Of a stretch of DNA of 64,000 nt, positions 23,783-61,161 are shown in pieces. Under the pieces are notes generated by a model. That model was not told the origin of the DNA, did no database searches, and saw nothing but the letters and a program-made list of their open reading frames with translations. The translations under genes were made by a program, and so were the position numbers. This DNA comes from Escherichia phage phiWec186: the sequence record LC739535.1; one strand, 5' to 3'. How positions within the stretch are numbered: position 1 is the stretch's first letter; every line of letters starts with the position of its first letter.

Positions 23783-24067
23783 ATGCGAGAAGATAATACT
23801 GTTGTTGTTGCGAGCTATCTCGTTATCGGTTTAACCGAAGAAGATGTGTACTACATTCGTAAAGGTTTGGAAGCTTACGCTACCCTCTTCATGGAAGACG
23901 AAAGCGATGTTGATAAATATTCCGTGGAGTTGATCAACGACAGTATTTATCCTTGCATAGCTCTTAAAGTAGATGCTGTTCTGTGGGAGCGTTTTGCAAG
24001 AAGTCACGATGCTATTGAATCTTCAATGGTTATGACACAAAACAACATTTTGGGGGTGATTCACTAA
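23783..24067 (+). CDS. hypothetical protein
   Basis: SD AAGGAG. Confidence 0.55.
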   Translation: MREDNTVVVASYLVIGLTEEDVYYIRKGLEAYATLFMEDESDVDKYSVELINDSIYPCIALKVDAVLWERFARSHDAIESSMVMTQNNILGVIH

Positions 24068-24297
24068 TGGCAGATATCATTGAGGTAAACTTCCGTACTC
24101 GGAAGAAAGTAGAGAAATATACAATATTGAAAAGTGTTTGCGTTGTTTGTTTCAATAGTGTAATCTACGATTCAAGAAAGGGCGAAGACGGTAATGAGCC
24201 GTATATCGAACTGTCAAAGGGCAACGGTAGTTGCATTTGTAAAGCTTGTGCTGTTCAGATTAAGGGGGTTGTTGATGAAAACGAATGGGATAAATAA
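24067..24297 (+). CDS. hypothetical Cys-rich small protein
   Basis: CVVCF...CICKAC zinc-ribbon-like. Confidence 0.45.
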   Translation: MADIIEVNFRTRKKVEKYTILKSVCVVCFNSVIYDSRKGEDGNEPYIELSKGNGSCICKACAVQIKGVVDENEWDK

Positions 24298-54586: not shown

Positions 54587-55294
54587 TTACCCTCCGTTAT
54601 TCGACGGTGTATTAGTATCTCTTGCAGCATTTTGGTTAATTGGGTTAGTGACTTTAGCACCACCAGTTGGAGCCTTGCTCTTAACCTCGCCACCAGTAGA
54701 TTTGTTCGGGGCAGTCTTCACAGCTATCGCGTTAGTTGTTGCAGTGCTGACCAAACGAATCTGCTCCAATTCCAGGTTGAACTGCATAGCGAATTCTGAA
54801 CGATATTCGTAAGTGTAACCTTTCAGGATCACGTTCTCGAAAGTACGGTGTTCTGTTAATAGAACTATCGGTTGACGAGCATCAAAAATCTGATCAAGGT
54901 ACTCGATTGCTTGGGAAATACGTGTTCCATTAACCCCTGCACTGTAAAGCTGATCACGCATCAAACGTACAGGCGTTTCTGTAATAACACCTGTCAATTT
55001 AAAAGTGTTGTTGTTTATTTTGACGTTATCACTCACTGTACTGCCGGATTCAACAGGGAAGCTTGTGATATCTGCTGAACGAGTTACTCCAACTTCCGGT
55101 GCGGAGTCGAAAGTAATCGCCATAAAGTTTTGTATGTATTGATCACTTGAGCTATTGTAAACACTGGCTAAGATACAAAAACCGTTATCACCTTTCACCG
55201 TGGAGGCGGAGTTATTCGTATTTTGTGTTGAGTTCACCTCTTGCTCGGATTTGTAGACGGCTCTTACCGACTGTTGTGGAGTCATTGCTGCCAT
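54587..55294 (-). CDS. tail protein (hypothetical)
   Basis: ATG at 55294 after GAGG; the track start at 55321 is TTG. Confidence 0.4.
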   Translation of the reverse strand: MAAMTPQQSVRAVYKSEQEVNSTQNTNNSASTVKGDNGFCILASVYNSSSDQYIQNFMAITFDSAPEVGVTRSADITSFPVESGSTVSDNVKINNNTFKLTGVITETPVRLMRDQLYSAGVNGTRISQAIEYLDQIFDARQPIVLLTEHRTFENVILKGYTYEYRSEFAMQFNLELEQIRLVSTATTNAIAVKTAPNKSTGGEVKSKAPTGGAKVTNPINQNAARDTNTPSNNGG

Positions 55295-55397
55295 GATAAC
55301 CTCATAGTAATGGTAATGCAAAGAGGAAGATGCAAGATCTTCCCATATTGATTATGATACCACAAATGTCGTCGTTATGTCAATGTAAAAATAATTC

Positions 55398-55426
55398 TTG
55401 ACTACCATGATCCGCCTTGCTACACT
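55398..55426 (+). promoter_or_regulatory. sigma70-like promoter TTGACT-N17-TACACT
   Basis: Immediately upstream of the + strand T5orf172 gene inside the minus-strand tail module. Confidence 0.45.
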
Positions 55427-55451
55427 GTATTTATTAACTAAGGAGGAAATT

Positions 55452-56465
55452 ATGGGCGTGATTAAAGGTTGGGACATTCAGAAGAAAGAATGTGAAGAAG
55501 TGGCAAGACCAGGTATTACTGTTCTTGGATTTGTTGAACCGTGGAATGGTGCACATACCAAACTGATGCTGAAATGTGAGAAGCATGGGGAATGGAATAC
55601 AACCTCCATCAACAACTTCAAAAAGAATGGTTCTGGTTGTAATGGTTGTAGAGCGGATATATGTGGTGCAAGAGCAGAAGGGAATAGCTTTGCAAGTAAA
55701 AATGCTATCTCAGATGAGCAACACATTAAGGATTTCTTGGCTACCGGATTGTTTGCAGAGGGGACAACCTTCGTCAATACAGGTGTGAAAACAAAAGGTA
55801 ATCACAACTGCGTGTGGAAAGTAAGTTGCCCTGTTTGTGCTGTGGATGTATATTCTCAAGCTGGTTTATGTGATGGTAGTTTTGAAGGTCTGACTACACA
55901 CCTTAAGGCTGGAAAGGTTCCTTGTCGTTGCTCTCCACGTCATTGCTATTCTAAAGACCAATGGTTGTTTAGATTTCAGTTAATGTGTGAAGAAAAAGGT
56001 TATACTTTCATCAAGGCCATCTACGAAGGGGAAGCATACTCTCATGGAGATGTTGAGTATGCTTGTCCAGAACACGGCTCACAACGCATGACTGTGAAGA
56101 ACCTCATGTCAGGTAAAGGTTGTCCAGAGTGTGCCAATAAAACACAACAGTTCTGTTATATCAATGAAGTGTATGATGAAGATAATAATCTCTGCGCTCT
56201 TAAATTTGGAATTGCCAATGATGCTGAACGTAGGATCAAAGGTCAGAACTCGAAGAATGCTTTCACAATGCAACAGAAAGCTGTCTACTTCTTTGATGAT
56301 ATCAAGTCGTGTCGAGCAGCAGAAAGGAAGTGTTTGAAGATGTTGAAGTGCGGTGTTGTGAATAAATTTCAATTGCAGGATGGACACACAGAAACAACCC
56401 ATCTGGACAATTACGAAATTATTGAGGCTATTTACGAAAGTTTTGGAGGGGTGTTACAGAAATGA
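55452..56465 (+). CDS. T5orf172-domain protein (homing-endonuclease-like)
   Basis: Cys-rich N-terminal repeats and C-terminal LKFGIANDAERRIKGQ...DGHTETT block, paralogous to 1..680; SD AAGGAGGAA. Confidence 0.6.
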   Translation: MGVIKGWDIQKKECEEVARPGITVLGFVEPWNGAHTKLMLKCEKHGEWNTTSINNFKKNGSGCNGCRADICGARAEGNSFASKNAISDEQHIKDFLATGLFAEGTTFVNTGVKTKGNHNCVWKVSCPVCAVDVYSQAGLCDGSFEGLTTHLKAGKVPCRCSPRHCYSKDQWLFRFQLMCEEKGYTFIKAIYEGEAYSHGDVEYACPEHGSQRMTVKNLMSGKGCPECANKTQQFCYINEVYDEDNNLCALKFGIANDAERRIKGQNSKNAFTMQQKAVYFFDDIKSCRAAERKCLKMLKCGVVNKFQLQDGHTETTHLDNYEIIEAIYESFGGVLQK

Positions 56466-56467
56466 AA

Positions 56468-56490
56468 AAAGGGGCCGAAGCCCCTTTCTT
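56468..56490. terminator. bidirectional terminator
   Basis: aaaaaggggc-cgaa-gccccttt hairpin flanked by A- and T-runs between convergent genes. Confidence 0.6.
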
Positions 56491-58444
56491 AGTTACCACC
56501 AGATTGTCCACTTAAAGTAGCTAAAGTTAAACGGTTGAAAACATTGTTACCACTGTTCTGAATACGAGCATCCAACATATTACCAAACTCCGAAGACGGG
56601 TTGATTGTTACGTTGATCAGATCACTCGGAATAGCAATCGTGTTTTCTACAATAGGTTGGTTACGAGCCAGATTAACGTTTGGCGTATAAGCTGTTTCAC
56701 GCAAATTCTCTAAAGGATTCCCGAAACCGAAAGCATGTGTTCGAGTTTCTTCTCCTCGGAACATTCTTCCAACGTCTTGAGTATCAATTCCAGTCCACTT
56801 ATAAAGGAAGTCGGCTACTGGGTTGGTATCTCCTGATTGTGTTGCGGCGTACAATTTGTCCGGTATAGTTTTATTAGGATCAGAATCCGGTCCGAAGATA
56901 GATGGTAAGTTTGTCACTAACCATTTATTAATATCTTCCGTGATACCGATAATCTCTGTACCAAACTTAGCAACATTCAGTGTGGCATTTGCAAACTCCA
57001 CCCCAAGATTCTTGGCAAAATTGTCCAAAGATTTAACGTTATCTAACCAAGATTCGTCTTTAGGTATTGCACTCATAAATCCTTCCAGGAAATAGTTCTG
57101 CATCCCTTGACCAACCAAACCTATTGTTGCAGTTAAACGTGTGTACTGTTTAGAAGCTTCCATTTGCTCATTAGTCAATGCAGCACCAGTACGTTGAAGC
57201 ATACGGAGGGTTTCTTGGAAGCCTTCTCCGTTCTTGCTAAACATACGTTGGTAATGCATGAGGTCATCTCCAAGGTTCTCAAGAAGACGACCAATCTGTG
57301 CCGAGTTCATGCCGCGACGCTCACCTTCATTCACAGTTGCCTGGATGAAAGCTAACGGATCGTTCTGCATGTGCTTAATTTGCGAAGGGTTCCAGCCGAA
57401 CATGTTCATGATATCGTTGATACCGTTGTCCCCGCCACGCCATTTTCCTTTCTTCTCGTCCCATTCAGAAGCCATCATCGAGTTACCTAAACGTTCACGA
57501 ACGTCTTTAAGGTTATCGATTGACTTGATAATGTTTGCCGAGTCAACACCGTTCTGTTCACCCCAAGCAGTCATTGTCATAATGGCGTTGGCGTTTGCCT
57601 GAACGTTCTCTGCACCACGACCTACAAACTTGATACGATCATTAGCATTTTGCAAAGTGTTCCCTACAACAGAGCCACCTGCAAATAACCCTGCACCGAT
57701 CATAGAAGAAACCATCATACGAGGGTTAAGACCTAAAGCACCATCTCGCATTTGGGAATACTTACGTTCCTTATCTCGACGTTGTTGTGCCAATTCTCGT
57801 TTATGGTTACGTTCAATATCGCGCAACTCTTTATCACGCATACGTTGACGTTGCTTGGCTTCTGCTTCCAGTTCTCGACGAATCCTACGGCGACCACGAA
57901 CCTCATCCTCAATATCTTTCGTTTTTTCTCTGTGGGATTTACGAAGGTTATCAAGCTGATGGGCCAGAGTTTGGTTCATACGTTGAAGAGTGATATCTCC
58001 ACGTTTGTATGATTCTACAGAGGCATCCATGATTTGTTTTGCTTGGCGTTGTGCATCTATGGAAGCTTTGGTATATTGCATACCACGCTTCTCAAAATTC
58101 TCCATGCGGAGGTTGCCTAAATCGTTACGACGAGCTTGGAGTTCTGCTGCGCGTTCTTCTGGTGTTTTCTTACCTGGTTTCGTTGGACGACCAGGACCGG
58201 AGGTAGTTCCACCACCTTTTGGAGCAGAAGGGGGAGCAGGGCGAGCAGGGAAAGTCTGCGCTTTACGCATTTCTCTTTCGATCTCTTTCATCTGCTGCCT
58301 AAATTTACTCATGTTTAAGGTAGGTTGGATTTTTTCAGCGAACCTTTTAATACTTTCGACAGAATCTTTGGCCTCTTTGAGACTGTTCTTGTCCACCTTA
58401 AATGTGACTACGTTACTGATTTTTGAGGCATTAATATCTAACAA
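56489..58444 (-). CDS. tail tape measure protein
   Basis: 651 aa, long charged coiled-coil regions plus Gly-rich hydrophobic segment MIGAGLFAGGSVVG; sits between chaperones and baseplate genes. Confidence 0.6.
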   Translation of the reverse strand: MLDINASKISNVVTFKVDKNSLKEAKDSVESIKRFAEKIQPTLNMSKFRQQMKEIEREMRKAQTFPARPAPPSAPKGGGTTSGPGRPTKPGKKTPEERAAELQARRNDLGNLRMENFEKRGMQYTKASIDAQRQAKQIMDASVESYKRGDITLQRMNQTLAHQLDNLRKSHREKTKDIEDEVRGRRRIRRELEAEAKQRQRMRDKELRDIERNHKRELAQQRRDKERKYSQMRDGALGLNPRMMVSSMIGAGLFAGGSVVGNTLQNANDRIKFVGRGAENVQANANAIMTMTAWGEQNGVDSANIIKSIDNLKDVRERLGNSMMASEWDEKKGKWRGGDNGINDIMNMFGWNPSQIKHMQNDPLAFIQATVNEGERRGMNSAQIGRLLENLGDDLMHYQRMFSKNGEGFQETLRMLQRTGAALTNEQMEASKQYTRLTATIGLVGQGMQNYFLEGFMSAIPKDESWLDNVKSLDNFAKNLGVEFANATLNVAKFGTEIIGITEDINKWLVTNLPSIFGPDSDPNKTIPDKLYAATQSGDTNPVADFLYKWTGIDTQDVGRMFRGEETRTHAFGFGNPLENLRETAYTPNVNLARNQPIVENTIAIPSDLINVTINPSSEFGNMLDARIQNSGNNVFNRLTLATLSGQSGGN

Positions 58445-58458
58445 AGTATTTCCTCCTG

Positions 58459-58707
58459 TTAGTGTATCATTTTCTTAAACATGTCTTGCATTTGAGAAGC
58501 GTTCTCTTGTTGCTTTCTCTTTATTGAAGTGTCTTTGCTGTACAGAGCTTCGATATAATCCTCATAGGTGAGGTACTCGTACATTCCTAACAGATAATCC
58601 ACCCCGTATTGATCCAGGGTGGAGCGTGTTTCCGAGGTATTCTTCACAACCTTGCAGAGAATGATCTCATACCACTTCAACGTAAGAGTCTTCTCTGCGG
58701 TTTCCAT
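58459..58707 (-). CDS. tail assembly chaperone, frameshift-extension ORF
   Basis: No SD before its ATG; lies in the -1 frame relative to the upstream chaperone. Confidence 0.45.
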   Translation of the reverse strand: METAEKTLTLKWYEIILCKVVKNTSETRSTLDQYGVDYLLGMYEYLTYEDYIEALYSKDTSIKRKQQENASQMQDMFKKMIH

Positions 58708-58727
58708 CGCGTGACGAATGGCTGGAC

Positions 58728-59210
58728 TTAGTTCGTTGCCAGATCCTGAACCGCTTGGAACTGGGTCAACAGTTTTCCGAAACCTCGTTTGAAAAAAGGG
58801 CCATAGTTCACCTCAAGAACTTTTGCTGTCAAGTCGAGGACAAGTTCTGGGTGAGCAAAGAAGAGTTCATCGAAGTTATCAGATACATTATGTCCTGCTT
58901 CGGTATATACTTCGTCTAAGATCTTACGGAGGAACACGGTAAGGTTCTTCTCTTCAAGACCAGAGAACAATTGAATAAGTGCCATTGCAATACGAGATTC
59001 CAGATCTTCATCAGCCGACATAAGGGCGGTATTGTACATGGTCATAGGTACAGCTAAAACGCTACCGAGTTCTGGAATACGTTCGAAGACCTTTGAAGGA
59101 CTCCACTTCAGAATACGGAAGGTTACGAAACGGGTTTCATCCAAGTAAATTTTTACGATTTCTTCTGGACGTGCATATTGTTTGATAGTATCGTCTTGTT
59201 GTTCTGACAT
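58728..59210 (-). CDS. tail assembly chaperone
   Basis: 160 aa acidic protein between tube and tape measure; SD AGAGAGGA; slippery T_TTT_TTC near its 3' end. Confidence 0.55.
   Translation of the reverse strand: MSEQQDDTIKQYARPEEIVKIYLDETRFVTFRILKWSPSKVFERIPELGSVLAVPMTMYNTALMSADEDLESRIAMALIQLFSGLEEKNLTVFLRKILDEVYTEAGHNVSDNFDELFFAHPELVLDLTAKVLEVNYGPFFKRGFGKLLTQFQAVQDLATN
58791..58797 (-). promoter_or_regulatory. candidate -1 programmed ribosomal frameshift site (T_TTT_TTC)
   Basis: Minus-strand heptamer TTTTTTC in the zero frame of the chaperone gene; the -1 frame is open into ORF 58459..58707. Confidence 0.45.
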
Positions 59211-59230: not shown

Positions 59231-59256
59231 AAATAAAAAGGGCATTTCTGCCCTTT
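59231..59256 (-). terminator. rho-independent terminator (minus strand)
   Basis: agggca-tttc-tgccct hairpin with T-run on the minus strand after the tube gene. Confidence 0.55.
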
Positions 59257-59261
59257 CGTTA

Positions 59262-59741
59262 TTATTGAATGGTCAGTGCAGAGATAGAGTTAAGAACACT
59301 CATACCTACACCAACTTCATTACGTAACAGGCTTGCATCTTTCAGACCGATAACCCATTGGTTCTCTGTAATCATTTCGCCCATGGTGTCTTCAGGTTGA
59401 GACTGAATCCAACCAATGGTGCTAATGTAATAGCCACGAGGATCTTCCAGATAAACGCTGAATGCTACTTGACGAGTAGAATACATTGTTTGAGCATAAG
59501 TTGCAAGAACTTCGTTCGCTGGAGATGTACGTTGCAGAGAAATAGTCATGGTGCCGAGACGGTTGCGGCTAAGAGCCAGAGAAACATCGCCATCAGTACC
59601 AGCATATGGGTTAATAATATCGTTGGCTTTTGCGATTACAATTTTAGTGTCGGTTGCAAAACCCCACGGCTCCCATCCACCCAGGGACAGAACGATTTGG
59701 GAAGGATCATAGGCCATTACGCCAGTAAGCATTTTATCCAA
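59262..59741 (-). CDS. tail tube protein
   Basis: 159 aa directly after the sheath gene; TTG start with SD AGGAG. Confidence 0.55.
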   Translation of the reverse strand: MDKMLTGVMAYDPSQIVLSLGGWEPWGFATDTKIVIAKANDIINPYAGTDGDVSLALSRNRLGTMTISLQRTSPANEVLATYAQTMYSTRQVAFSVYLEDPRGYYISTIGWIQSQPEDTMGEMITENQWVIGLKDASLLRNEVGVGMSVLNSISALTIQ

Positions 59742-59787: not shown

Positions 59788-61161
59788 TTAGTTTGCAGTA
59801 CGGTTGGTCAGGACGTGAACCTGAACCTTAACGTAATGGAAGAATCCTGCGTAAACGTATTCAATCTTCATGCCGTCAACCAGACGCTGATTAATCTGCG
59901 AATCAGTCATGTCAGCACGAGAAGGAAGGTAAACGATAGGCTTCAGGTCAACACGCAGTCCAGTTTCTTCTGAAACAACCACTTCGTTAGAAATAGAACC
60001 GTTCAGAATACCAACTTGGATCGGGTTAGCCAGAACCGCTTGTTTAATCAGAGCCAGACCATTGGAAGTAGCACGAACACCACCACCCAACATTGACTGC
60101 TGTTTGAACAGAGTGAACAGAGATTCTTCGGTACGAGCTTTGAACCACAGAGCGTGAACTACGTAGTCAGCAAAGAAACCGTTAACCATCAGACCATCGC
60201 GGTAGAACAGAGTTGCGTGTTCTTTACGGTAGATGTTACCATTCTGTTGAACAATGTTATTTTCCGCAGTCTGACCAAGCTTCTCGATTTCAACTCCAAC
60301 CAGAGTTTTACCGTGTAGAGTGGTAGTACCAGGCTGTGCAGAGCAGATAGAACCAACTACGGCAGCTTCTGGGAATACAGAGTCCGCGTCGCTCATCCAC
60401 AAGGCGAAACAGGTGTTGACGTAACCGAGGTCATTCAAACGCTCAAGAACGTTGTCTTCGGCTTTAGTAGTGATACCAACGTCTGAACTGGAGAAGAAGT
60501 ATACTTTATCATTCTCTTCTACCCAAGCAGCTACATCAAGAATATCTTCAACAGCGTGGGAGTCAGACAGAACCCAGAACCAGCTACTATCGATATCGTG
60601 CAGAGCGGCGATATCTTCGGTAATGCCGTTAGCGTAGACGGTTTCTTTAGCGAAGCCGTTTGCATCCAGAGAAGCGTATTTGCCTACAACTGGAGAAACA
60701 GTGATCACAGCACCATCGTTAGCAACGGTAAACAGACCACCATAAACTACGTCTGCATTGATCATTTCTGTCAGACCAACAACGATTTCTTGTGCTGTTG
60801 CAGTGTCGTCAGCAATGAATTTGAAATCTTTCTTGTTCTTGCCTTCTTTGATAGTGACAACATATGTTGCACTGTCTTCAACTGCTGGGGTCAGGGTAAA
60901 GTTTGTTACTTCACGCTTACCAACAATCACTTGACTTGGTGCGAATAATCCGTTAAACAGTTTAACTGCCATGATATAGGCTGGATCATTAACACCGTAA
61001 CCCGCTTCCAGAAGTGCGTCAGAAGAGGTGTAATATTCAATCGCGTTACCAGTGACAGTCTGACCAGTAAGGATCAGGGGAATGTCAAACTGGGTTTCAC
61101 GGATTGATGTAGCTCCGTACAGTAAAGTTACGGTTGCTACCTTTTCACGAAAAGTTGCCAT
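59788..61161 (-). CDS. tail sheath protein
   Basis: 457 aa, directly before the tube gene; SD AGGAG. Confidence 0.6.
   Translation of the reverse strand: MATFREKVATVTLLYGATSIRETQFDIPLILTGQTVTGNAIEYYTSSDALLEAGYGVNDPAYIMAVKLFNGLFAPSQVIVGKREVTNFTLTPAVEDSATYVVTIKEGKNKKDFKFIADDTATAQEIVVGLTEMINADVVYGGLFTVANDGAVITVSPVVGKYASLDANGFAKETVYANGITEDIAALHDIDSSWFWVLSDSHAVEDILDVAAWVEENDKVYFFSSSDVGITTKAEDNVLERLNDLGYVNTCFALWMSDADSVFPEAAVVGSICSAQPGTTTLHGKTLVGVEIEKLGQTAENNIVQQNGNIYRKEHATLFYRDGLMVNGFFADYVVHALWFKARTEESLFTLFKQQSMLGGGVRATSNGLALIKQAVLANPIQVGILNGSISNEVVVSEETGLRVDLKPIVYLPSRADMTDSQINQRLVDGMKIEYVYAGFFHYVKVQVHVLTNRTAN

What the first reader, a model, noticed from the sequence alone, without database searches (positions are those of the whole stretch)
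58459..59210. Candidate -1 programmed frameshift joining two tail assembly chaperone ORFs
The 160-aa chaperone ORF contains the slippery heptamer T_TTT_TTC in its zero frame, about 20 codons before its stop (plus-strand 58791-58797). The -1 frame is open from there into the downstream 82-aa ORF, which has no Shine-Dalgarno site of its own. This matches the conserved chaperone frameshift found between the tail tube and tape measure genes of tailed phages.
Basis: partly seen in the sequence, partly recalled or inferred. Interest (0 to 1): 0.55.

Follow-up and report, generated by a model that had tools for sequence, protein, structure and literature searches.

The report
Tail chaperone -1 frameshift, unannotated
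This is the usual programmed -1 ribosomal frameshift that lets a tailed phage make a short and a long tail-assembly chaperone from one gene; it is real and strongly conserved, is missing from every database record I inspected for this phage group, and is otherwise an ordinary example of a well-known mechanism.

Summary
The window is 100% identical over the 4.8-kb tail-gene region queried to Escherichia phage phiWec179/181 (Phapecoctavirus). On the minus strand the gene order is sheath, tube, 160-aa chaperone (Pfam Phage_TAC_15), 82-aa ORF, tape measure. T_TTT_TTC (58797-58791) is in zero-frame register, 20 codons before the chaperone stop. The -1 frame is open from there to the stop at 58459, which predicts a 250-aa fusion.

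Comparison supplies the strong evidence:
- All 37 related loci (Stephanstirmvirinae and Vequintavirinae, chaperone identity down to 27-29%) keep TTTTTTC in the same register and an 80-92-codon -1 extension.
- The codon before the heptamer encodes Pro, Cys or Ser but always ends in T.
- A more distant homologue (Rheinheimera phage Barba8A) has lambda's G_GGA_AAG near the same place instead.
- The ATG of the 82-aa ORF has no Shine-Dalgarno site and is not conserved, and conserved residues lie upstream of it.
- Synonymous-codon conservation peaks at the heptamer.

No downstream RNA structure was found. An SD-like GAGGTG lies 11 nt upstream. None of 23 public records inspected annotates the fusion. 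A 2025 paper proposes the same frameshift in sister families. Verdict: a new, unannotated member of a known kind, of low to moderate interest.

The parts
58728..59210 (-). TAC-N: the 160-aa tail assembly chaperone ORF, i.e. the zero-frame product that terminates at TAA 58728-58730
   Evidence: ORF list. Pfam PF21822 Phage_TAC_15, E=9e-23, 81.6 bits. phrog_3840 'tail assembly chaperone', E=1.6e-51. Its own SD-like site AGAGAGGA pairs at -7.8 kcal/mol.
58791..58797 (-). Slippery heptamer T_TTT_TTC in zero-frame register (codons TTT TTC = F139 F140), 20 codons before the stop
   Evidence: Sequence. Invariant in register in all 37 Stephanstirmvirinae and Vequintavirinae loci. U_UU.U_UU.C belongs to the H_HH.U_UU.Y class, which is among the most efficient heptamers in E. 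coli (PMC4066793).
58794..58800 (-). Overlapping second in-register heptamer C_CCT_TTT. A slip here gives the same product. Present only in the Stephanstirmvirinae lineage.
   Evidence: C_CC.U_UU.U is also in the efficient H_HH.U_UU.Y class. It is absent where the preceding codon is TGT or AGT.
58809..58814 (-). Internal Shine-Dalgarno-like GAGGTG, 11 nt upstream of T_TTT_TTC; a candidate upstream stimulator
   Evidence: Duplex with the 16S 3' tail is -9.9 kcal/mol, in the top 0.4% of 16-nt windows on this strand. Present in most Stephanstirmvirinae and in rV5-like phages, but weak or absent in Certrevirus, KP13-16 and others. Its function is inferred, not shown.
58459..58791 (-). TAC-C: the 110 codons read in the -1 frame after the slip (QTRFRK...KKMIH, stop TAA 58459-58461). 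The predicted fusion TAC-NC is join(59210..58791, 58791..58459), 250 aa.
   Evidence: Translation. A single uninterrupted tblastn piece covers at least 80% of it in 239 of 326 matching phage records, and starts at residue 1 in the closer records listed. The alignment shows a G/S-rich variable linker followed by a conserved helical domain.
58728..58790 (-). Dual-coding overlap: the zero-frame tail KRGFGKLLTQFQAVQDLATN* and the -1-frame linker QTRFRKTVDPVPSGSGSGNEL
   Evidence: Both frames are conserved at the amino-acid level among relatives. The fraction of identical synonymous codons rises to 0.77-0.86 around the heptamer, against 0.4-0.55 elsewhere in the gene.
58780..58784 (-). GGTTT, invariant in 19 aligned relatives, 6-9 nt downstream of the heptamer. 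It encodes G-F in frame 0 and R-F in frame -1.
   Evidence: Alignment A1. Dual-coding constraint most simply explains it. A role as a stimulator was not tested.
58459..58707 (-). The 82-aa ORF as called and annotated (BDU12003.1, hypothetical protein). Reinterpreted here as the C-terminal three quarters of TAC-C, not an independent gene.
   Evidence: No SD (+0.7 kcal/mol). The ATG is not conserved, and relatives have their first start codon at codons 29-84 of the extension. Database ORF calls start at six different alignment positions and are 67-85 aa long. phrog_16039, function unknown.
56489..58444 (-). Tape measure protein gene, immediately downstream (context)
   Evidence: phrog_16051 'tail length tape measure protein', E=1e-296.
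59262..59741 (-). Tail tube gene, immediately upstream (context)
   Evidence: Pfam PF11681 and phrog_280. Annotated as tail tube protein in BASEL phage records.

Best explanation
A programmed -1 ribosomal frameshift in the tail assembly chaperone gene.

Most ribosomes translate 59210->58728 and release the 160-aa TAC-N. A minority slip back one base when the two tRNA-Phe occupy the P and A sites on U_UUU_UUC (or tRNA-Pro and tRNA-Phe on the overlapping C_CCU_UUU). They then read CAA ACG... in the -1 frame, pass the zero-frame stop, and terminate at 58459. The result is a 250-aa TAC-NC: 140 aa shared with TAC-N, a roughly 22-residue G/S-rich linker, and a helical C-domain.

By analogy with lambda gpG/gpGT, the shared N part would coat the tape measure protein and the C-domain would recruit the tail tube protein. 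The slip frequency would fix the ratio of the two forms.

What is shown here: the signal, its register, the open frame, their conservation, and the absence of an independent start. What is inferred: that the slip happens, how efficient it is, that the SD-like GAGGTG 11 nt upstream stimulates it, and what the two domains bind.
For: 1. Anatomy: the heptamer is in register, 20 codons before the stop, and the -1 frame is open for 110 codons.
2. Context: the site lies between the tube and tape measure genes, and the upstream ORF is a Pfam TAC family member.
3. Conservation: 37 of 37 related loci (21 unique contexts in the first set of 30 loci plus the window) keep TTTTTTC in register with an 80-92-codon -1 extension. 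The +1 frame closes within 2-20 codons of the chaperone stop.
4. Preceding codon: it is CCT (Pro), TGT (Cys) or AGT (Ser), so the amino acid changes while the third-position T is kept.
5. Outgroup: Rheinheimera phage Barba8A (TAC 27% identical to the intermediate locus L019, itself 31% to the window; homologous TAC-C) has G_GGA_AAG in register 18 codons before its stop, with the -1 frame open 74 codons past it. The event is kept while the heptamer has been swapped for a different canonical one.
6. No independent start: there is no SD, the ATG is not conserved, and conserved residues (SPAI..A.E) lie upstream of any start. Gene callers pick six different alignment positions as the start.
7. Synonymous-codon conservation peaks at the site.
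8. tblastn gives one uninterrupted piece covering at least 80% of the 110-aa -1-frame product in 239 records, starting at the first post-slip residue in the closer ones listed.
9. Both heptamers are in the class that is most efficient in E. coli (PMC4066793).
10. The same arrangement is proposed for the sister families Vandenendeviridae and Andersonviridae (PMC12846349). Lambda G/GT frameshifting is widely conserved (PMC5009743).
Against: - There is no experimental evidence for the fusion protein in this phage or its relatives, and I found no paper reporting it for Stephanstirmvirinae or Vequintavirinae.
- No stable or conserved downstream RNA structure exists: z = +0.61, and RNAalifold predicts 0 pairs or none with covariation. 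Efficiency may therefore be low. Lambda G/GT is itself low-level, about 30:1 (PMC5009743).
- The SD-like element is not conserved in all lineages.
- No natural in-frame fusion of the two parts was found among database proteins.
- The related loci are not phylogenetically independent.
Confidence: 0.85

Rival explanations
1. Transcriptional slippage. RNA polymerase adds one extra U on the T6 run, and ordinary translation of that minority mRNA gives the same P-F-F-Q fusion.
For: The site is a homopolymeric T6 run. Adding one nucleotide would put downstream codons in the -1 frame and give an identical protein, so proteomics could not tell the two mechanisms apart. No run longer than 6 occurs anywhere in the 64-kb window, which is consistent with selection against slippage-prone runs generally. 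Transcriptional slippage is an established route to such fusions (PMC5009743).
Against: - The run is only 6 nt and never lengthens to 7-9 in 37 loci. From my own knowledge, not tested here, functional bacterial slippage sites usually have longer runs.
- The run always sits in exact X_XXY_YYZ register and Z is always C.
- The homologous site in phage Barba8A is G_GGA_AAG, a classical ribosomal heptamer that is not a homopolymer.
Confidence: 0.07
2. Two independent genes. The 82-aa ORF is translated on its own from ATG 58707, for example by termination-reinitiation 20 nt after the chaperone stop, and the heptamer is coincidental.
For: An ATG exists in this phage 20 nt after the TAC-N stop. All 23 public records inspected annotate separate ORFs or nothing. 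No fused protein is in the database.
Against: - There is no SD (+0.7 kcal/mol).
- The ATG is Ile, Leu or Ser in most relatives. In nine of the aligned relatives the first in-frame start codon lies at codons 59-84, inside the conserved domain.
- Amino-acid conservation extends upstream of the ATG and across the 'intergenic' gap.
- The heptamer is invariant in register across subfamilies.
Confidence: 0.04
3. Artefact. A sequencing indel in a homopolymer split what is really a single ORF.
For: Homopolymer runs are prone to indel errors on some sequencing platforms.
Against: The identical arrangement appears in dozens of independently sequenced genomes and metagenomic contigs. The zero-frame tail after the heptamer and its stop are themselves conserved.
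Confidence: 0.01

Closest known systems
Phage lambda gpG/gpGT tail assembly chaperone -1 frameshift, and the conserved 'G-T' frameshift of long-tailed dsDNA phages (Levin 1993 and Xu, Hendrix & Duda 2004, as reviewed in PMC5009743)
   Same: Two overlapping ORFs sit directly upstream of the tape measure gene. [quoted passage not shown] The second ORF has no start signals of its own. No downstream structure is evident. The outgroup phage Barba8A even uses lambda's G_GGA_AAG.
   Different: This is a myovirus, with a sheath gene upstream. The heptamer is T_TTT_TTC, plus an overlapping C_CCT_TTT. The proteins have no detectable sequence similarity to gpG or gpT: TAC-N falls in Pfam Phage_TAC_15 and TAC-C matches no Pfam family. 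An SD-like element lies upstream. Efficiency and binding partners are untested.
TAC-N/TAC-NC -1 frameshift proposed for Vandenendeviridae (Pakpunavirus, phage Adele) and Andersonviridae, with an invariant GTTTTT motif (PMC12846349, Dec 2025)
   Same: These are related myovirus lineages with the same module order. The downstream ORF is routinely annotated as 'hypothetical protein'. There is a poly-T slippery motif near the 3' end of TAC-N, and the -1 frame is uninterrupted in every genome. The Vequintavirinae relatives examined here read TGT TTT TTC, which contains GTTTTT.
   Different: That paper does not report the site for Stephanstirmvirinae or Vequintavirinae. In the window's lineage the base before the run is C (CCC TTT TTT C), not G, and this creates a second heptamer. 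I did not align these TACs to those families, because tblastn did not reach them.
Phage P2 E/E+E' frameshift in the FETUD tail operon (Christie et al. 2002; cited from my own knowledge and mentioned in PMC5009743)
   Same: A contractile-tail phage with the order sheath, tube, chaperone pair, tape measure, and a T-rich slippery run.
   Different: No sequence relationship was tested. The review states that P2 efficiency is 2-3-fold higher than lambda's. Efficiency here is unknown.
E. coli dnaX and IS911-type -1 frameshifts stimulated by an upstream Shine-Dalgarno-like sequence (Larsen 1994, cited in PMC4066793)
   Same: An SD-like GAGGTG (-9.9 kcal/mol) lies 11 nt 5' of the heptamer.
   Different: dnaX also has a strong downstream hairpin, which is absent here. 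The SD-like element is not conserved in every lineage that keeps the heptamer.

Membership tests
G/GT-type tail assembly chaperone -1 programmed frameshift | Two consecutive ORFs located between the major tail (tube) gene and the tape measure gene | tested here: met
   Tube 59262-59741, TAC 58728-59210, small ORF 58459-58707, TMP 56489-58444, all on the minus strand.
G/GT-type tail assembly chaperone -1 programmed frameshift | The upstream ORF belongs to a tail assembly chaperone family | tested here: met
   Pfam PF21822 Phage_TAC_15, 81.6 bits against a cut-off of 22. phrog_3840, E=1.6e-51.
G/GT-type tail assembly chaperone -1 programmed frameshift | [quoted passage not shown] | tested here: met
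   T_TTT_TTC at 58797-58791, 20 codons before the stop, plus the overlapping C_CCT_TTT.
G/GT-type tail assembly chaperone -1 programmed frameshift | The shifted frame is open from the heptamer through the whole downstream ORF | tested here: met
   110 codons with no stop. The +1 frame closes 20 codons after the stop.
G/GT-type tail assembly chaperone -1 programmed frameshift | The arrangement and slip site are conserved in diverged homologues | tested here: met
   37 of 37 loci keep the heptamer and register. Barba8A has G_GGA_AAG instead. 239 records have an uninterrupted -1 product. There is a synonymous-site conservation peak.
G/GT-type tail assembly chaperone -1 programmed frameshift | The downstream ORF lacks its own conserved translation start | tested here: met
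   Anti-SD pairing is +0.7 kcal/mol. The ATG is not conserved and start positions vary.
G/GT-type tail assembly chaperone -1 programmed frameshift | Both a short and a frameshift-extended protein are made, in a fixed ratio, and both are required for tail assembly | not testable with these tools
   This needs proteomics or genetics. No report was found for this phage group.
Structure-stimulated -1 PRF (downstream hairpin or pseudoknot) | A stable and/or covarying RNA structure 5-9 nt downstream of the heptamer | tested here: not met
   MFE z-score +0.61. RNAalifold predicts 0 pairs across 19 sequences. Within subfamilies there are no compensatory changes, and the only 'helix' pairs the U-run itself.
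SD-stimulated -1 PRF (dnaX/IS type) | An internal SD-like sequence about 10-14 nt upstream of the heptamer | tested here: inconclusive
   GAGGTG is present 11 nt upstream at -9.9 kcal/mol, in the top 0.4% of windows. It is weak or absent in 7 of 21 unique contexts that keep the heptamer. Its functional effect is untested.
Programmed transcriptional slippage | A long homopolymeric run (typically 7 or more) whose length, rather than its codon register, is what is conserved | tested here: not met
   The run is exactly T6 in all 37 loci and always in X_XXY_YYZ register. The homologous site in Barba8A is the heteropolymeric GGGAAAG. The length threshold comes from my own knowledge.

The most novel reading that the evidence does not exclude
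The frameshift signal may be stimulated without any RNA structure, by two flanking sequence elements. One is the internal SD-like GAGGTG 11 nt upstream. The other is the invariant GGUUU(C) 6-9 nt downstream, which would act as a stimulator in its own right (for example through contact with the ribosome's mRNA entry channel or rRNA) rather than being a by-product of dual coding. The lineage-specific doubling of the slip site (C_CCU_UUU_UUC) would tune the TAC-N:TAC-NC ratio.
Probability: 0.1. Interest if true: 0.45.

Novelty: new member of a known kind. Interest (0 to 1): 0.25.

Why it matters
The main consequence is for annotation. In every one of the 23 GenBank/RefSeq records I inspected for Stephanstirmvirinae, Vequintavirinae and Barbavirus, the long chaperone isoform is missing. 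These include reference phages phAPEC8 and phi92, rV5-like phages and BASEL collection members. Its C-domain is either called a 'hypothetical protein' with an arbitrary start or left as an unannotated 290-315 bp gap. These phages are widely used in therapy and biocontrol collections.

Adding join(59210..58791, 58791..58459) corrects a structural-module gene. It also extends the conserved TAC frameshift, proposed in 2025 for two sister families, to two further subfamilies and a separate genus.

The natural swap between T_TTT_TTC and G_GGA_AAG at nearly the same place in homologous genes is a neat argument for ribosomal slippage over polymerase slippage. It could serve as a comparative system for studying how the isoform ratio is set. 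It does not change what is known about the mechanism.

Tried and rejected
- Downstream stimulatory structure. A single-sequence fold of 151 nt is no more stable than shuffles (z +0.61). RNAalifold on 19 diverse sequences predicts no pairs. Subfamily subsets give no covariation, and the only predicted helix pairs the U-run with a downstream A-run at -1.4 kcal/mol. Rejected.
- Natural in-frame fusions of TAC-N and TAC-C. Searches with the 250-aa fusion and with the 110-aa C part returned only separate proteins, about 160 aa and 67-85 aa respectively. None found.
- Identifying the TAC-C fold. There is no Pfam family and no PDB sequence match. The AlphaFold model is of moderate confidence (pLDDT 69: disordered linker, then four helices). 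The BFVD Foldseek search found only one unnamed 73-aa homologue. Uninformative.
- Literature for a direct report in phAPEC8-, phi92- or rV5-like phages. None was found in the held library. The Virology 2022 paper on T4-like TACs is not held.
- A second candidate from my background scan, T_TTG_GGG at 24049-24055, whose -1 frame is open for 80 codons. This is simply the next gene starting with an ATGA stop/start overlap. Rejected as a frameshift site.
- Reaching Andersonviridae or Vandenendeviridae TACs by tblastn for a direct alignment. They were not hit, even with a divergent query at E<=1.

Full report
**Identity of the window.** The 4.8-kb stretch around the finding is 100% identical to Escherichia phages phiWec179 and phiWec181. 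These are classified as Phapecoctavirus, Stephanstirmvirinae, and are myoviruses of about 154 kb. The stretch is 79-80% identical, over about 61% of its length, to phAPEC8-like phages. In the phiWec179 record every gene in the region is annotated 'hypothetical protein'.

**Checking the observation.** All genes here are on the minus strand.
- The order is tail sheath 59788-61161 (phrog_205), tail tube 59262-59741 (PF11681, phrog_280), a 160-aa ORF 58728-59210, an 82-aa ORF 58459-58707, and the tape measure gene 56489-58444 (phrog_16051, E=1e-296).
- The 160-aa ORF is a bona fide tail assembly chaperone: Pfam PF21822 Phage_TAC_15 at 81.6 bits against a gathering score of 22, and phrog_3840 at E=1.6e-51.
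- The minus-strand sequence reads ...GTG AAC TAT GGC CCT TTT TTC AAA CGA GGT TTC GGA.... TTTTTTC therefore occupies 58797-58791 in the register T_TTT_TTC, with 20 sense codons before the TAA stop.
- Re-reading from the C at 58791 in the -1 frame gives 110 codons without a stop (QTRFRKTVDPVPSGSGSGNELSPAIRHA-METAEK...KKMIH). These run straight into and through the 82-aa ORF. The predicted fusion is 140 + 110 = 250 aa.
- The 20 nt before the ATG at 58707 have no anti-SD complementarity (+0.7 kcal/mol, against -6.6 to -10.3 for the four neighbouring genes).

Every statement in the finding is therefore correct.

**Is it more than chance?** Within the window alone the case is only suggestive. A greedy set of 86 ORFs (about 20,600 codons) contains 56 in-register X_XXY_YYZ heptamers, roughly 1 per 370 codons. 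This site has the longest open -1 frame of them all. The next-best site (24049-24055) is merely a following gene with an ATGA overlap.

**Comparative evidence.** I collected 38 further loci from GenBank phages and IMG/VR contigs. Thirty-seven are Stephanstirmvirinae, Vequintavirinae or unclassified relatives (Phapecoctavirus, Justusliebigvirus phi92, KP13-16, rV5-like Vequintavirus, Mydovirus, Certrevirus, Seunavirus, Henunavirus, Avunavirus, Acinetobacter phage ABPH49 and others). Their chaperone identity to the window goes down to 27-29%.
- All 37 have TTTTTTC in the same zero-frame register, 20-34 codons before the stop. In all of them the -1 frame is open from there for 80-92 codons past the stop, ending just before the tape measure gene. 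The +1 frame closes within 2-20 codons.
- The codon that supplies the first T is CCT (Pro) in Stephanstirmvirinae, TGT (Cys) in the Vequintavirinae loci examined and AGT (Ser) in ABPH49. The amino acid changes while the T is kept.
- The first Phe codon is always TTT and the second always TTC.
- The 38th locus, Rheinheimera phage Barba8A (Barbavirus), was found with the intermediate locus L019 as query. Its TAC is 27% identical to L019, which is itself 31% identical to the window's TAC. Its -1-frame product is clearly homologous (SSLDFIDYMFF...LNYLVKLNEWLDIQSY). It has no T-run. Instead it carries G_GGA_AAG, the lambda heptamer, in register 18 codons before its stop, a few codons from the equivalent position, with the -1 frame open for 74 further codons.
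- A frameshift that is retained while one canonical ribosomal heptamer is exchanged for another is hard to explain other than by selection for ribosomal -1 slippage.

**The downstream ORF is not an independent gene.**
- In the alignment of -1-frame products, the residue aligned with the window's Met is Ile, Leu or Ser in most relatives. In nine of the aligned loci the first ATG, GTG or TTG in frame lies at codon 59-84 of the extension, inside the conserved domain.
- The motif (S/T/N)P(A/T/S)(I/V)..A(I/M/L)(E/D) is conserved upstream of any start, across what the records treat as intergenic DNA.
- Ten database ORF calls for this region are 67-85 aa long and begin at six different alignment positions.
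- A tblastn search with the 110-aa -1 product matches 326 phage records. In 239 of them a single uninterrupted piece covers at least 80% of the query. In the closer records listed it starts at residue 1, the first codon after the slip.
- In the nine-sequence Stephanstirmvirinae codon alignment of TAC-N, the fraction of same-amino-acid pairs that use the identical codon is 0.4-0.55 along the gene. It rises to 0.77-0.86 in the windows covering EVNYGPFFKRGFGKL, which is the signature of an overlapping functional element and dual coding.
- The zero-frame tail after the heptamer is also conserved, so both products appear to be under selection.

**Stimulatory elements.** There is no evidence for a downstream hairpin or pseudoknot.
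- The 151-nt region folds no better than shuffles (z +0.61).
- RNAalifold predicts no pairs across 19 diverse sequences and nothing with covariation within either subfamily.
- The only invariant downstream bases are GGTTT, 6-9 nt after the heptamer. They encode G-F in frame 0 and R-F in frame -1, so dual coding is the simplest explanation.
- Upstream, GAGGTG (58814-58809) pairs with the 16S 3' tail at -9.9 kcal/mol. That places it in the top 0.4% of 16-nt windows on this strand and makes it as strong as real ribosome-binding sites. It lies 11 nt before T_TTT_TTC. SD-like stimulators at this kind of spacing are documented for prokaryotic -1 frameshifting (PMC4066793).
- The element is strong in 11 of 21 unique contexts, intermediate in 3, and weak or absent in 7. 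It may be a lineage-specific enhancer, but its function is an inference.
- Sharma et al. place H_HH.U_UU.Y heptamers among the most efficient in E. coli. That class covers both U_UUU_UUC and C_CCU_UUU. They list U_UU.U_UU.C as giving more than 0.1% frameshifting without stimulators and as being used by IS elements.

**Mechanism and function.** The best-supported model is tandem -1 slippage of P- and A-site tRNAs on U_UUU_UUC, with the upstream C_CCU_UUU as an alternative or additional site. It produces mostly the 160-aa TAC-N and a minority of the 250-aa TAC-NC.

TAC-C is modelled, at moderate confidence (pLDDT 69), as a disordered G/S-rich linker of about 22 residues followed by four helices. 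It matches no Pfam family, PDB sequence or informative BFVD structure.

By analogy with lambda, the shared N part would bind the tape measure protein and the C-domain would recruit the tube protein, with neither in the finished virion (PMC5009743). This is inference. A terminator-like hairpin between the tube and TAC genes (59237-59256) may further lower expression of the chaperones and tape measure relative to sheath and tube. A terminator is annotated at the same place in phAPEC8.

**Rivals.**
- Transcriptional slippage on T6 would give an identical protein and cannot be formally excluded. Against it are the short, never-lengthened run, the strict register, and the heteropolymeric G_GGA_AAG in the Barba homologue.
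- Independent initiation of the 82-aa ORF is contradicted by the missing SD, the non-conserved ATG and the conservation upstream of it.
- A sequencing artefact is excluded by dozens of independent genomes.

**Comparison with what is known.** This is the conserved 'G-T' tail chaperone frameshift (Xu, Hendrix & Duda 2004; reviewed in PMC5009743) in its myovirus form, like P2 E/E+E'.

A December 2025 paper (PMC12846349) argues, with the same kind of comparative evidence, for a -1 frameshift at an invariant GTTTTT motif in the TAC genes of Vandenendeviridae and Andersonviridae. It identifies those families as relatives of Vequintavirinae and Stephanstirmvirinae but does not report the site in the latter two.

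None of the 23 database records I inspected carries a joined CDS, and three leave the TAC-C region with no annotated gene. I found no paper reporting it for phAPEC8-, phi92- or rV5-like phages.

**Verdict.** This is a new, unannotated member of a well-known kind. Confidence that a -1 fusion product is made is about 0.9, and that the slip is ribosomal about 0.85. A specialist would not be surprised. The value lies in correcting annotation across a widely used phage group and in the neat heptamer-swap evidence. Interest is 0.25.

Noticed in passing
window 55398-56465 (+): A 355-aa ORF lies on the opposite strand, wedged between the Dit-like tail gene (54587-55321, PF21821) and the tape measure gene. 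It has three CapR-homology domains (PF21817, E=4.6e-27), treble-clef zinc-finger-like hits and a weak T5orf172 (GIY-YIG-related) hit. At this position neither phAPEC8 nor PsgM04F has an ORF annotated. It therefore looks like a lineage-specific insertion, possibly a homing-endonuclease-like mobile gene.
   Followed up: partly
window 59237-59256 (hairpin; functional on the minus strand): A terminator-like GC hairpin followed by a T-run (AAAGGGCAGAAATGCCCTTTTTATTT on the minus strand) lies between the tail tube stop and the chaperone start. The phAPEC8 RefSeq record annotates a terminator at the same place. It may attenuate chaperone and tape measure expression relative to sheath and tube. A second, stronger terminator follows the tape measure gene (56465-56490).
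   Followed up: partly
window 24049-24055 (+): An in-register T_TTG_GGG sits 3 codons before the stop of a 94-aa ORF, with 80 open -1 codons. On inspection, the -1 ORF is simply the next gene (24067-24297), which starts with an ATGA stop/start overlap. This is ordinary translational coupling, not a frameshift candidate.
   Followed up: yes
whole window: No A or T homopolymer longer than 6 occurs anywhere in the 64 kb. There are 14 T6 and 22 A6 runs on the plus strand and none of 7 or more. This suggests avoidance of slippage-prone runs.
   Followed up: no
L037 (Rheinheimera phage Barba8A, MK719713.1) 1324-1330: The homologous chaperone gene of this 80-kb Barbavirus uses G_GGA_AAG instead of T_TTT_TTC. 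The -1 extension (74 codons beyond the stop) is annotated only as a 53-aa hypothetical protein. About 115 Barba-type records probably share the unannotated frameshift. The gene after the extension is an opposite-strand 'putative DNA binding protein', not the tape measure gene.
   Followed up: partly
and one search hit lists: The host labels look doubtful. 'Pseudomonas phage PsgM04F' is 96.7% identical to this coliphage region. More than 20 'Campylobacter phage' records (MG0656xx) carry chaperones typical of coliphage Phapecoctavirus and Vequintavirus genomes (82% and about 29% identical to the window's). These may be coliphage contaminants or mis-assigned hosts.
   Followed up: no
L020 (phi92, NC_023693.1) 464-556: The phi92 RefSeq record annotates a 'hypothetical tRNA' inside the tail sheath coding sequence. 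This is probably a spurious prediction.
   Followed up: no
L023 (Raoultella phage Ro1) 902-1374: The tail tube gene of phage Ro1 is annotated as two short CDSs (195 and 240 nt), where relatives have one gene of about 474 nt. This could be a frameshift sequencing error or a real disruption in that record.
   Followed up: no
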